DNA of 63,502 nt, the filler included, from Collodictyon triciliatum (taxonomy: Eukaryota): assembly GCA_043381765.1 (NCBI GenBank). It is 27 parts of 27 records of this genome, joined end to end, with 100 filler letters (N's around TTAATTAATTAA, not from the genome) between each part and the next. Parts side by side here need not be neighbours in the genome. Positions count along the whole stretch, not along the records: positions 4,732 to 6,992 come from JBHJMP010009186.1; 26 more parts are not named here. The stretch is one strand, 5' to 3'. Under the pieces are notes generated by a model. That model ran no database searches, was not told where the DNA came from, and saw only the letters and a list, made by a program, of their open reading frames with translations. Both the position numbers and the translations under genes were made by a program. Of the stretch, positions 4,732 through 6,992 are shown one piece after another (positions within the stretch are counted from its first letter, which is position 1; the number at the start of each line of letters is the position of its first letter).

Positions 4732-4858
4732 AGTGCTAGCCTCTCCACGGTAGTGTCTTCTCCTACTCGCGTTTGCTCTCTCCCATGCGCTCCCATCCCG
4801 CCCCTTTGTATGGCATAACCTCGCTACACTTTGAATCGAATAAAGGAAAAAAGAAAAA
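4732..4858 (+). mobile_element. 3' end of a dispersed A-tailed repeat (LINE 3' end or SINE-like), cut by the contig start
   Basis: Closely matches 13197-13314 and the reverse complement of 56244-56362. Ends CTTTGAATCGAATAAAGG followed by an A-rich tail. Confidence 0.85.
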
Positions 4859-6097
4859 GACAATCCAAACAAGTACACTCCATGTCTGATTTACATGAAT
4901 CACATTTTTGAGGACATAGGAACCCAAAACTGTTTCAACCAATCTCTATAAGAACTAACAATATACCGTGTCATATTACTCCAGATACTGCATGTTTGAT
5001 AGATATATTAGTATTAACTGGAAAAACATCATTAATGAAGAATATATCAGGATTTGAAGAGACCCTATGGGATAAGTTCTTTGAAATGAAGAAGAGAGTC
5101 TTTCATCAAAAAGACTACAATTTTAAATACATGATACAAACAGATGGCTTGGCGGTGTGATTATTGTTTGAAAAGAAAGGTATTTCAAATTCAAAATCCA
5201 AATATAATCAAAAGAACCAAGAATATGTTTATATAGATGAACTTTCCGATGAGCTGTTATCTTTATTGATGGCAAAAAAATATAGTTGGGATGGATGCAG
5301 GCAAGTTTAATTTTGTTTACATGGTGGATGAGACATATAATAAATTACGTTACCCGGCACACCAAAGAAGACATGATAGCAAATCTCTTAAAAATGACAA
5401 AATACTCTTGTGCAAGAAAAAAAAGTGCAATGCTTCAGGGATGTGCATGGCAATAGGTTTACAAAGTGCTGTTTCTTTTGGTGCTAAGACTTTTGAAGAG
5501 AATCAGCAGTTTGAGGCATCAAGAGTATCTTTAATCGATTTAGAGACAGAACTGAGTAAACATAATTCATGCACGGTCGATTATGAACAATTTCGAAAAC
5601 ATGTATCTATAGAATCAAGATTCCGGATAGAACTTTCCGGATTTTATGAACAAGTGACTTTTTCCGAAAGATGACATGGAGACAGTATGTTAATACAAAA
5701 AGAAGTGAACAGTTGTTTATGGACCGAATCGAAAAGACATTTGGCAAGGATGTTGTACTGGCGTATGGAGACTGGAGCAGAAAATCTCTGATGAAGCATT
5801 TTATGCCAACAATCGGAAGAGGATTACGAAAAATGCTATCCAAACGTTTTGAAACAGTTAGTGTAGATGAATATTAGAACCTCCAAGATGTGCTGCAACT
5901 GCGAAAAAGAACTGGAATATATGACATCGAAAGGAAATTCAAAAAAAAGGTATATAGATGTCTCATGTAAAGAATGTAATCGCTCATAGAGTAAACAAAG
6001 TGTTTTCTTGACAAGAGACTTAAACAGCGCTAATAATATACTCAACAAAGTTTTTCCAATTCTTCAAAATATGCCTACACCTTCCTCTAAAAAATAG
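4859..6097 (+). pseudogene. Fanzor1 (eukaryotic TnpB-like RNA-guided endonuclease), copy A, disrupted and 5' truncated
   Basis: Across frames: NPNKY..PCLIYMN, FKYMIQTDGLAV*LLF, RuvC-I VGMDAGK, YGDWS...MPTIGRGLRKMLSKRF, RuvC-II VDEY, TSKMCCNC zinc finger, RuvC-III LTRDLNSANNI. Several stops and frameshifts. Homologous to 54797-56243. Confidence 0.9.
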
Positions 6098-6214
6098 ACT
6101 GTCGGGTCTTTCCTGGCTGCCTTCACCACCACACAATCTTTGTTAAAAAGTGGTGAGACCTTGGATGTTAGCGCACCAGGTTTACTGATCAAAAGATTGA
6201 TATACCCCTTCTAG
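6098..6214 (+). ncRNA. Candidate Fanzor omegaRNA scaffold and element right end, copy A
   Basis: Non-coding stretch conserved with 54670-54787 (minus strand). Similarity stops at CTAG 6211-6214. Nested stems CCTGG/CCAGG and TCACCAC/GTGGTGA plus a terminal hairpin. Confidence 0.7.
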
Positions 6215-6659
6215 ATAATCTTTTGACCAGGTGATTGGGCATCCAGAATGAGCCGGTTAATTCCTTCGGTTATAATTTCCACAATTGTTGTTGGGCGAAG
6301 AGCTGGTTCCACGAACAAGCCCACGCCAAACAAATCCAAATTCCCACAGTTGTGGTCTGCCCGCCCTATAAAAATCCGCAACCCGACGAGTTCGCCCGAT
6401 CGCAACATAACTTCTGAGACAAAAGAGAAATCTGGGAAGGCCAAAAGCCGCTCGAGCACGACCACACAACGCCACCAACGCGTTATCCCCAACGCCGTTG
6501 GCCACCCTTATGCCTGCACCCATCTCACTTCGCCATGGGCTACAGCTGAGCGCAACTAACCGGAATATAACTGAGTGGGATGAGAGAAAACAAGGAAAGG
6601 CGAGAGTATTAAGCCCAAACAAAGCACAGTTCTACCCATCCAGAAGGCAGCTACCCAAG

Positions 6660-6992
6660 AAACAAAACATTACAAAACATTACAAAACATTACAAAACAT
6701 TACAAAACATTACAAAACATTACAAAACATTACAAAACATTACAAAACATTACACAACATTACAAAACATTACAAAACATTACAAAACAAAAACAAAACA
6801 AAACCAAACCAAACCAAACCAAACCAAACCAAACCAAACCAAACCAAACCAAAACAAACCAAAACAAACCAAAACAAACCAAACCAAAACAAACCAAAAC
6901 AAACCAAAACAAACCAAAACAAACCAAAACAAACCAAAACAAACCAAAACAAACCAAAACAAAACAAAACAAAACAAAACAAACCAAAACAA
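6660..6992. repeat. Compound microsatellite (ACAAAACATT)n, (AAACC)n, (AAAAC)n
   Basis: Direct inspection. Similar simple repeats terminate most contigs in the window. Confidence 0.95.

What the first reader, a model, noticed from the sequence alone, without database searches (positions are those of the whole stretch)
6098..6214. Conserved, structured ~115-nt non-coding region after the Fanzor stop: candidate omegaRNA scaffold
Seen: both copies keep CTGTCGGGTCTTTCC(C)TGGC...CCTTCACCACCACAC...TGGTGAGA.CTTGGA...TAGCGCACCAGGTTT...ATACCCC.TCTAG. Pairings retained in both copies are CCTGG(6112-6116)/CCAGG(6176-6180), TCACCAC(6123-6129)/GTGGTGA(6150-6156; 6 bp in copy B), and GGGT(6104-6107)/ACCC(6204-6207), which could close the 5' and 3' ends or form a pseudoknot. 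A terminal hairpin has a GAAA tetraloop in copy B. Differences concentrate in the loop at 6135-6149. Established: Fanzor/TnpB omegaRNAs derive from the element's 3' end. That this region is that RNA is an inference.
Basis: partly seen in the sequence, partly recalled or inferred. Interest (0 to 1): 0.9.

Follow-up and report, generated by a model that had tools for sequence, protein, structure and literature searches.

The report
Decayed Fanzor1 guide-RNA (omegaRNA) relic
The stretch is the worn-out 3' end of a broken, multi-copy Fanzor1 transposon gene and descends from the guide-RNA scaffold that such nucleases use, so it is a new example of a known kind of element.

Summary
The region is not specially conserved: A and B are 81.5% alike here, against 87.5% in the ORF part. 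It does not fold better than shuffles (z about -0.8), and the two copies show no compensatory change.

The upstream ORF is a Fanzor1 pseudogene. It has stops and frameshifts and lacks about 148 N-terminal residues.

The nearest intact relatives, from aquatic metagenomes, carry a roughly 150-nt RNA across the ORF end with strong covariation. A covariance model of that RNA places both window copies at ranks 2 and 3 of the whole window, at the expected place and strand (targeted E about 1e-3). A model built from the window copies finds one hit in 727 kb, which is the same RNA in locus L033. A sequence-only profile finds neither copy.

So the region descends from an omegaRNA-type scaffold, but with a fold partly different from the one proposed. 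It overlaps ancestral C-terminal codons. It lacks the relatives' 3' half and terminal motif, and each copy has stem mismatches (2 in A, 5 in B).

Verdict: a relic omegaRNA module, a new member of a known kind, of modest interest.

The parts
4732..4852 (+). Right end of a separate, more abundant repeat that abuts the truncated Fanzor copy. It is also at 56244-56452 (-) and 13105-13313 (+).
   Evidence: BLAST of copy A against the window and sequence reading. Summed contig depth here is about 2000-2700 in runs X3 and X4, against mostly about 100-500 over the Fanzor body. Many contigs diverge at 4852/4856.
4855..6094 (+). Fanzor1 pseudogene, copy A. It has stops and frameshifts and an internal deletion at its 5' side.
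   Evidence: Frame analysis. tblastn of P0002 residues 246-628 onto 4927-6175. 85.7% identity to copy B over 1378 columns.
6095..6097 (+). TAG that ends the copy A frame. It lies in the 5' arm of stem 1, and copy B has no stop at the aligned place.
6096..6122 (+). Stem 1 (6096-6106 with 6112-6122, loop 6107-6111). It aligns to stem 1 of the relatives' RNA.
   Evidence: R1 and R2 alignments. 9 of 11 pairs form in A and 9 of 11 in B, with mismatches at different pairs. All contigs of runs X1, X3 and X4 covering 6118 read A, which would pair with 6100.
6123..6156 (+). Stem 2 (6123-6129 with 6150-6156) around a variable loop (6130-6149) that stands where relatives have an inner hairpin.
   Evidence: 7/7 pairs in A and 6/7 in B. 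The CM aligns it to the relatives' stem 2. At its second pair the window has C:G. The P0002 clade has G:C and distant clades have U:A. 8 of 26 A/B differences fall in 6135-6149.
6158..6181 (+). Lineage-specific hairpin (6158-6161 and 6163-6164 with 6176-6181). It replaces the relatives' conserved 10-position core as a 24-nt insertion in the CM alignment.
   Evidence: MFE fold of A. 6/6 pairs in A and 5/6 in B. The CM insertion is shown.
6182..6199 (+). Conserved linker UUUAC plus stem 5 (6186-6190 with 6195-6199). The 10-mer UUUACUGAUC is identical in locus L017.
   Evidence: 5/5 pairs in A, 4/5 in B.
6200..6219 (+). 3' tail and end of the repeat. The boundary lies between 6214 and about 6219.
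   Evidence: A/B similarity falls to 38.5% after 6214. No cover in any of the four runs over 6252-6631. In X4, the variants at 6130, 6144 and 6168 lie 86, 72 and 47 letters from a contig end, which points to about 6215-6216 (inference).
6215..6234 (+). Flank that would supply the guide if the module were transcribed as an omegaRNA (inferred only).
   Evidence: Rule taken from Saito 2023 passages. Nothing was tested here.
54668..54791 (-). The same 3' module in copy B.
54800..56251 (-). Fanzor1 pseudogene, copy B. It has 5 in-frame stops and a local frameshift, it starts at about residue 149 of relatives, and the RuvC-II Glu is replaced by Gly.
   Evidence: (P0002 residues 149-593, E 7e-85).

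Best explanation
Window 6095 to about 6216 (and 54668-54791 on the minus strand) is the 3'-terminal module of a multi-copy, decayed Fanzor1-derived repeat. It descends from the omegaRNA scaffold of that Fanzor1 lineage.

In an active ancestor (inferred), the transcript across the ORF end folded into four elements: stem 1 (6096-6106/6112-6122), stem 2 (6123-6129/6150-6156), a lineage-specific hairpin (6158-6164/6176-6181) and stem 5 (6186-6190/6195-6199). It bound the nuclease and used the 15-20 nt of flank after the repeat end as guide.

The same DNA also encoded the C-terminal tail of the protein. In the two copies seen here it is most likely a relic. The genes are broken and N-terminally truncated, the stems carry uncompensated mismatches, and the module has decayed at least as fast as the ORF.
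For: Shown:
- The ORF is a Fanzor1. Its read-through P0001 finds 1402 relatives at E<=1e-3, the best at 1e-83. It hits solved PpFz1 (6e-9), SpuFz1 (3e-5) and GtFz1 (1e-3). Relative P0002 hits SpuFz1 at 9e-37.
- The nearest relatives have a conserved block of about 150 nt, from about 100 nt before the stop to about 50 nt after it. It ends where the loci diverge.
- The 5' 99 positions of that block are 92% paired in 13 sequences, against 36-48% with slid partners. 14 pairs have changes on both sides, against 1-5 in the slid controls.
- Model R1 finds this RNA in 34 of its 35 hits on the ORF strand at ORF ends, including clades only 36-44% identical in protein.
- Model R2 puts copy A (17.6 bits) and copy B (16.2 bits) at ranks 2 and 3 of 127 kb searched, full length, on the sense strand and directly after the ORF.
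- In the 341-nt target regions the E-values are 7.9e-4 and 1.5e-3, and the best antisense score is 1.1 bits.
- Reciprocal test: model R3, built from A and B, gives a single hit in 73 loci (727 kb counting both strands). It is L033 2580-2680 +, E 0.009, the place R1 had already marked.
- A sequence-only profile of the same relatives finds neither copy among its 7 hits at E<=100, so the CM score comes largely from pairing.
- Internally deleted copies in runs X3 and X4 join 5852, 5855, 5872 or 5900 to 6089 or 6099 and keep this module.

Established knowledge: Fanzor1 omegaRNAs lie between or over the ORF end and the right end, and carry a 14-15 nt variable extension. 'Ghost loci' keep only the ends (Saito 2023, passages). 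The scaffold beyond SL1 varies between species (Xu 2024, passages).
Against: - No RNA evidence. The one clearly RNA run (X20) covers only 4732-4771, 5753-5966 and 5800-5864.
- Between A and B there are 0 compensatory double changes, and 2 (A) and 5 (B) of 29 model pairs are broken.
- Differences are not significantly rarer in paired columns: 9 of 58 against 17 of 65, p=0.19.
- The region is less alike between the copies than the ORF.
- MFE stability is ordinary.
- Whole-window CM E-values are only 0.15 and 0.28. The best window hit (15937-16024, 19.4 bits) has no Fanzor ORF beside it, so scores of this size occur as probable noise.
- E-values from these models are rough.
- The module lacks the relatives' conserved core after stem 2, their stems 6-7 and the terminal motif. 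That motif is found by the regex in 21 of 26 relatives and in neither window copy.
- CM alignments are fitted to the structure, which favours pairing.
Confidence: 0.7

Rival explanations
1. The stretch is only the decayed C-terminal coding tail of the Fanzor ORF. Its likeness to relatives and between copies comes from shared protein-coding ancestry, and this lineage never used it as RNA, or no longer does.
For: In copy A the ORF frame continues open from 6098 to 6211 after a single TAG. BLASTP and tblastn carry the alignment with P0002 through the stop to residues 628. Copy B has no stop at the aligned TAG position.
Against: The same segment in relatives shows RNA covariation inside the coding tail. 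It stays conserved in L028 and L076, where the ORF stops early inside the RNA. The sequence-only profile misses the window copies while the structure-aware model finds them. A and B differ by 4 single-base indels in 120 nt. The peptide likeness beyond the stop is weak. A 38-codon open frame has about a 16% chance (own estimate).
Confidence: 0.12
2. The stretch is the cis-acting 3' terminus of a carrier transposon, for example a Helitron-like end with a subterminal hairpin about 10 nt before CTAG. It is kept because it is needed for mobilisation, not as a guide RNA.
For: The hairpin at 6186-6199 is followed by 11 nt and then CTAG at 6211-6214, which fits CTRR. The next base is T in copy B. Internally deleted copies keep the end. 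Fanzors are reported inside hAT, Mariner/Tc1, CMC, LINE and Helitron elements, and CrFNuc sits in Helitron2 (Jiang 2023, passages).
Against: The hairpin and its UUUAC leader align to stem 5 of the Fanzor RNA family, and the 10-mer is identical in L017. The base after CTAG is A in copy A. No terminal inverted repeat was found within either contig. No Rep/helicase gene or 5' end is visible. The Helitron features are recalled, not tested against a model.
Confidence: 0.08
3. There is no function at all in any ancestor. The matches to the relatives' RNA model are chance hits in AT-rich repeat DNA.
For: Whole-window E-values are 0.15-0.28, and an unrelated site scores higher. Stability z-scores are ordinary. 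The two copies are not independent of each other.
Against: Both hits are full length, on the sense strand and exactly after the ORF. The reciprocal model finds one hit in 727 kb, and it is the homologous RNA. MAFFT independently aligned the blocks to the relatives.
Confidence: 0.1

Closest known systems
It matches no Rfam family.
   Same: It lies on the ORF strand across or after the ORF end. Stem 1, stem 2, the A-rich strand before the stem 2 3' arm, the UUUAC linker and stem 5 align. Hits are reciprocal with the CMs.
   Different: The window copies have a 24-nt hairpin in place of the conserved 10-position core. They lack stems 6-7 and the terminal motif. Their ORF stops before the RNA rather than inside it. 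They are decayed.
SpuFz1 omegaRNA of Spizellomyces punctatus (Saito et al. 2023, PMC10432273; passages read)
   Same: It is a Fanzor1 partner RNA. [quoted passage not shown] The window's protein relatives hit SpuFz1.
   Different: The SpuFz1 conserved part is 75 nt and lies in a 3' inverted repeat. Here it is about 120 nt, and no inverted repeat was found within the contigs. The RNA sequences could not be compared with the tools at hand. Expression and binding are shown for SpuFz1 and not here.
GtFz1 omegaRNA and ISDra2 TnpB omegaRNA, which overlap the end of the ORF (Saito 2023, passage)
   Same: The RNA scaffold shares DNA with C-terminal codons. In the P0002 clade the overlap is about 100 nt, and in copy A the whole module is in frame with the ORF.
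   Different: The reported GtFz1 overlap is 17 aa. In the window the overlap is inferred from a read-through of a stop.
CrFNuc fRNA of Chlamydomonas reinhardtii, with 20 extra solo fRNA copies (Jiang et al. 2023, PMC10530073; passages read)
   Same: It is a multi-copy Fanzor1 family in which the 3' RNA module outnumbers or outlives intact genes. Compare the internally deleted copies that keep 6089/6099 onward.
   Different: The carrier transposon of the window family is unknown. No small-RNA data are available here.

Membership tests
Fanzor1 / TnpB omegaRNA (OMEGA guide RNA) | Encoded on the nuclease strand, at or over the 3' end of the Fanzor/TnpB ORF, and reaching the right end of the mobile element | tested here: met
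   ORF homology runs to 6094 (to 6175 with read-through). Copy similarity and run cover end at 6214 to about 6219.
Fanzor1 / TnpB omegaRNA (OMEGA guide RNA) | Conserved secondary structure supported by covariation | tested here: inconclusive
   Within the window there are 0 double changes in 29 pairs across 2 copies. In relatives the support is strong. The window copies fit the relatives' model with targeted E of 8e-4 and 1.5e-3, and a sequence-only profile misses them.
Fanzor1 / TnpB omegaRNA (OMEGA guide RNA) | A transcript with defined ends that carries 14-21 nt of flank as guide | not testable with these tools
   Only contigs of four runs could be laid. The RNA run X20 does not cover the module.
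Fanzor1 / TnpB omegaRNA (OMEGA guide RNA) | Bound by a cognate, intact nuclease | tested here: not met
   Both adjacent ORFs are broken, lack about 148 N-terminal residues, and copy B has Gly at the nearly invariant RuvC-II Glu. Intact copies elsewhere in the genome could not be searched because no genome is held.
The conserved RNA of the P0002-type Fanzor1 superclade (models R1/R2) | Stems 1, 2 and 5 with the UUUAC linker | tested here: met
   Full-length R2 alignments of both copies. Pairs formed under the homology fold: 27 of 29 in A and 24 of 29 in B.
The conserved RNA of the P0002-type Fanzor1 superclade (models R1/R2) | Invariant core after stem 2 (AUCNGUUGAU), stems 6-7, and a 3'-terminal AAGGUGUAAA-like motif at the element end | tested here: not met
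   The core is replaced by a 24/25-nt insertion. The motif regex is found in 21 of 26 relatives. Of the 5 misses, 3 have variant spellings, 1 is cut by its contig end and 1 lacks the motif. It is found in neither window copy.
Fanzor1 protein (adjacent gene) | RuvC-I Asp, RuvC-II Glu, RuvC-III Asp (RDxNS/A), a CxxC...CxxC zinc ribbon, and similarity to solved Fanzor1 structures | tested here: met
   GVDAG, RDLNSA and the CCNC...C..C motifs are seen in translations. PDB sequence hits to PpFz1, SpuFz1 and GtFz1. The Pfam TNB domain is only E=0.022 in the window piece, and is above its cut-off in relative P0005. The gene is a pseudogene.
Helitron 3' terminus | Subterminal hairpin about 10-12 nt before a CTRR end, insertion between A and T, a 5' TC end, and a Rep/helicase in autonomous copies (features recalled) | tested here: inconclusive
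   A hairpin plus 11 nt plus CTAG is present. The following base is T in B but A in A. The 5' end and any Rep/helicase are not visible.

The most novel reading that the evidence does not exclude
This Fanzor1 lineage may have evolved a shortened omegaRNA. It would keep stems 1, 2 and 5 of a widely conserved scaffold, swap the conserved core for its own hairpin, and drop the otherwise near-universal 3' stems and terminal motif. On this reading the hundreds of truncated and internally deleted copies seen in two organisms' runs still make guide RNAs that intact paralogues use in trans. That would be a large natural library of 'ghost' guides.
Probability: 0.12. Interest if true: 0.55.

Novelty: new member of a known kind. 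Interest (0 to 1): 0.3.

Why it matters
The placement of a guide-RNA scaffold at the 3' end of Fanzor genes is established biology, so the finding itself is expected.

Two things are useful.
- The session gives a structure-aware model (R1/R2) of an omegaRNA-type family shared by many aquatic Fanzor1 clades. It has no Rfam entry. In one full-text search for 'Fanzor' plus 'covariance model', none of the 8 papers listed of the 12 that hold both terms carried either term in its title or abstract (listing only).
- The window family shows how such a scaffold can lose its otherwise conserved 3' half. That bears on how small a Fanzor1 scaffold can be, if the shortened form proves active.

Tried and rejected
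- **Own genome:** none is held, so all genomic copies could not be collected.
- **Close relatives of the window family:**
  - The metagenome scan with the 163-aa C-terminal piece gave 138 pattern matches, none confirmed.
  - The viral scan with P0001 gave 12 pattern matches, none confirmed.
  - The DNA pattern in viral contigs gave 0 matches.
  - The DNA pattern in prokaryotic genome contigs gave 1 match (L081). It lies inside a GC-rich bacterial gene and is a chance hit.
- **Earlier findings of the scan:** nothing on this genome or sequence.
- **Rfam:** no family at gathering score in the window. Only a 11.2-bit snoRNA-like match at E=9 near the region. Nothing in three relatives' loci.
- **BLASTN of the module against the 80 loci:** only 12-21 nt chance matches. 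The nhmmer step of that script failed on a format option.
- **Thermodynamic stability as evidence:** rejected, since z is only about -0.8.
- **RNA evidence from public runs:** the holders have small shares only (0.05-0.14 of words). X3 and X4 are only guessed to be RNA. X20 does not cover the module. No conclusion on expression or habitat is drawn.
- **A 13/14-bp stem between 6185-6198 and the flank 6217-6230:** present in copy A and not favoured in copy B. My hand-read 'compensatory' version in B needs a bulge and a mismatch. Dropped as copy-specific.
- **Terminal inverted repeats within either contig:** none convincing.
- **Search for the relatives' 3' motifs in the window:** 20 matches against 13.7 expected, and 2 against 4.5 expected, none at the copies.
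- **TAG as a sense codon:** considered because copy A's two internal stops in 5867-6214 are both TAG. Rejected because copy B is also broken by TGA and TAA, and B and the runs read GAA at 5987-5989.

Full report
**What the window is.** The 63.5-kb window is a chain of contigs of about 2.3 kb joined by N44-TTAATTAATTAA-N44 linkers. The finding lies on contig 4732-6992 (copy A, + strand). The second copy lies on contig 54203-56452 (copy B, - strand). Both contigs start inside repeated DNA, so the 5' part of the element is not visible. No whole genome is held for the window.

**Check of the observation.**
- The leading 15-mer occurs exactly twice, at 6099-6113 (+) and 54773-54787 (-), with 0.05 expected.
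- The copies align from 4855 to 6217 against 56018-54667 at 85.7% identity. The likeness collapses after TCTAG, with 3 of the next 5 bases shared and 38.5% identity over 6215-6240.
- 8 of the 26 differences within 6095-6214 fall in 6135-6149.
- The stretch is not specially conserved. Identity is 81.5% (78.9% with indels), against 87.5% (85.6%) in the ORF-homologous part, and 107 of 112 sliding 120-nt ORF windows are at least as alike.
- Its folding energy is ordinary. z is -0.78 and -0.89, with 46 and 34 of 200 shuffles folding as well, and the antisense strands behave alike.
- The proposed pairs do not vary, apart from one break at 6150 in B. They therefore carry no evidence for or against a structure.

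**The gene beside it.** Both copies are pseudogenes with stops and frameshifts.
- The copy B read-through, with X at five stops (P0001), finds 1402 proteins at E<=1e-3 among 1.84 billion representatives. The best is at 1e-83, and most hits are 600-700 aa long.
- P0001 hits the solved Fanzor1 proteins PpFz1 (6.3e-9), SpuFz1 (2.9e-5) and GtFz1 (1e-3). The best relative, P0002, hits SpuFz1 at 9.2e-37 over nearly its whole length.
- Pfam alone is weak: TNB domain E=0.022. It is above its cut-off only in relative P0005.
- tblastn maps P0002 residues 149-593 onto copy B (E 7e-85). Nothing maps for residues 1-148, so both copies lack the N-terminal quarter.
- At the nearly invariant Glu of the alignment (E530 of P0002), copy B has Gly. 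I take this residue to be the RuvC-II Glu from its alignment to SpuFz1 (inference and the passage).
- Directly upstream of the truncated gene sits the end of another repeat (4732-4852, 56244-56452, 13105-13313). It has several-fold higher summed contig depth than the Fanzor body in runs X3 and X4.

**How common the family is.** Four public runs were laid on contig A at 80% likeness.
- 149 (X1), 363 (X3), 363 (X4) and 3 (X20) contigs matched.
- Cover runs through the ORF and the module, drops in bin 6176-6251, and is zero from 6252 to 6631 in all four runs.
- In X4 the variants at 6130, 6144 and 6168 lie 86, 72 and 47 letters from a contig end. This points to an end at about 6215-6216 (my inference).
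- Joints from 5852, 5855, 5872 or 5900 to 6089 or 6099 show internally deleted copies that keep the 3' module. Three of them have only 5, 9 or 22 other letters between the two sides.
- These are contigs, so nothing can be said about transcription.

**Relatives, and what sits at their 3' ends.** No close relative of the window family could be fetched.
- A scan of metagenome contigs with an alignment of the nearest proteins (A2) gave 80 loci. The closest to the window are L001-L008, at 36-37% identity over about 470 residues.
- In the P0002 clade a block of about 150 nt is conserved. It runs from about 100 nt before the stop to about 50 nt after it and ends abruptly where the loci diverge.
- It stays conserved in L028 and L076, where the ORF stops early inside it.
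- On 13 sequences, a structure for its first 99 positions has 92.0% of cells paired, against 36.0-47.5% when partners are slid by 1-3 columns. It has 14 pairs with changes on both sides, against 1-5 in the slid controls, and 0 of 500 shuffles reach its covariation score.
- Covariance model R1 then found 35 matches at E<=1 in the 80 loci. 34 of them are on the ORF strand at the ORF end, including clades whose proteins are only 36-44% identical to P0002. The 35th is a 16.5-bit antisense hit.
- No Rfam family matches.
- By position and by established Fanzor/TnpB biology (passages of Saito 2023, and Jiang 2023), this is very probably the omegaRNA scaffold of that superclade. That step is inference.

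**Is the window stretch the same RNA?** MAFFT already aligned the window blocks to the relatives.
- R1 on the whole window, with filters off, placed copy B (9.7 bits) and copy A (9.6 bits) at ranks 3 and 4.
- The broader model R2, built on 26 relatives, raised them to ranks 2 and 3. A scores 17.6 bits (E 0.15) and B scores 16.2 bits (E 0.28). Both are full-length matches on the sense strand, starting at the stop codon.
- Searched only in the 341 nt where an omegaRNA is expected, E is 7.9e-4 (A) and 1.5e-3 (B). The best antisense score is 1.1 bits.
- Model R3, built from A and B alone, finds one hit in 73 loci (727 kb on both strands): L033 2580-2680 (+), 20 bits, E 0.009. This is the site R1 had marked at 2579-2673.
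- A sequence-only profile of the same 26 relatives finds neither copy among 7 hits at E<=100. The CM signal therefore comes mostly from pairing.
- Cautions. The two copies are not independent. The E-values are rough. The alignments are fitted to the model. The best window hit (15937-16024, 19.4 bits) has no Fanzor ORF beside it.

**The fold that homology suggests.**
- Stem 1 is 6096-6106 with 6112-6122. It has 9/11 pairs in each copy, with mismatches at different pairs. All contigs of X1, X3 and X4 covering 6118 read A, which would pair with 6100.
Its second pair is C:G here, G:C in the P0002 clade and U:A in distant clades.
- The loop 6130-6149 stands where relatives have an inner hairpin.
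- A 24-nt local hairpin (6158-6164 with 6176-6181) replaces the relatives' invariant core.
- The UUUAC linker and stem 5 (6186-6190 with 6195-6199) follow. The 10-mer UUUACUGAUC is identical in L017.
- On this fold CCUGG (6112-6116) and CCAGG (6176-6180) each pair locally, not with each other. The 4-bp GGGU/ACCC helix is not needed.
- With two invariant sequences the alternatives cannot be separated by covariation.

**What argues for a relic.** Under the homology fold, A has 27 of 29 pairs and B has 24 of 29. Between the copies there are two one-sided pair-keeping changes and no double change. Differences are not significantly rarer in paired columns (9 of 58 against 17 of 65, p=0.19). The module has diverged more than the ORF. 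The genes are dead.

**Missing 3' half and overlap with the coding tail.**
- The module lacks what follows stem 5 in relatives: two nested stems and a terminal AAGGUGUAAA-like motif. A regex finds the motif in 21 of 26 relatives. The five misses are three variant spellings, one contig end and one true absence. It is found in neither window copy.
- Xu 2024 (passages) reports that Fanzor1 scaffolds between SL1 and the guide vary from one to three stem-loops. A short form is therefore not excluded.
- The stretch is not simply non-coding. After the TAG at 6095-6097, copy A stays in frame to the TAG at 6212-6214. Alignments with P0002 run through the stop to residue 628. This matches the relatives, where the RNA overlaps the C-terminal codons.

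**Verdict.** The stretch descends from a Fanzor1 omegaRNA-type scaffold, with confidence 0.7. In these copies it is a decayed remnant, its fold differs in part from the one proposed, and it lacks the relatives' 3' half. It is a new member of a known kind. No expression or binding evidence exists.

Noticed in passing
window 1-63502: The window is a chain of about 27 contigs of about 2.25-2.36 kb in descending length, joined by N44-TTAATTAATTAA-N44 linkers. It also has five longer N runs (27-736 nt). Features near linkers are contig ends, not biology.
   Followed up: yes
window 4732-4852; 56244-56452 (-); 13105-13313: A repeat of at least 210 nt abuts the 5'-truncated Fanzor copies and also occurs on a third contig without any Fanzor. 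Its summed contig depth in runs X3 and X4 is several-fold that of the Fanzor body, and many contigs diverge at 4852/4856. It may be another element inserted into the gene, or a carrier.
   Followed up: partly
window 15937-16024 (+): This is the best hit of R1 (18.2 bits) and R2 (19.4 bits) in the window, yet no Fanzor ORF is near. It lies upstream of an rve-integrase ORF (14737-15867, minus strand; Pfam rve, 4.7e-10). It sits between inverted copies of a GGGTGTACA motif and near (TTAGGG)n-like repeats at about 16190-16225. It is either a false positive or a solo scaffold.
   Followed up: partly
window 6185-6198 with 6217-6230: In copy A only, 13 of 14 bases of the last hairpin region are complementary to the flank just beyond the repeat end. 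The 57-nt fold has z -2.67. Copy B does not favour the equivalent.
   Followed up: partly
loci L001, L007, L069, L079 and others (3' ends of their RNA): In relatives the UUUAC linker before stem 5 is complementary to the terminal GUAAA. L007 has UUUGU with AUAAA, a possible compensatory change that hints at a long-range or pseudoknot pairing next to the guide. L005 breaks it. This was read by eye and was not counted.
   Followed up: no
window 5852-6099 (joints in runs X3, X4): Contigs join 5852, 5855, 5872 or 5900 to 6089 or 6099. These are internally deleted family members that lack the zinc-ribbon and RuvC-III coding part but keep the 3' module.
   Followed up: partly
window 5987-5989: Copy A has TAG where copy B and the contigs of X3 and X4 read GAA. 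That is a two-base difference creating a stop at a codon that is Glu or Asp in relatives.
   Followed up: partly
window 6660-6992: A 33-copy tandem repeat of a 10-nt unit (AAACAAAACA) fills the end of contig A.
   Followed up: no
loci L003 (254-kb contig) and L006 (173-kb contig): Intact P0002-type Fanzor1 genes with the conserved RNA lie on very long metagenome contigs. These could be giant-virus or protist genomes. Their context was not examined.
   Followed up: no
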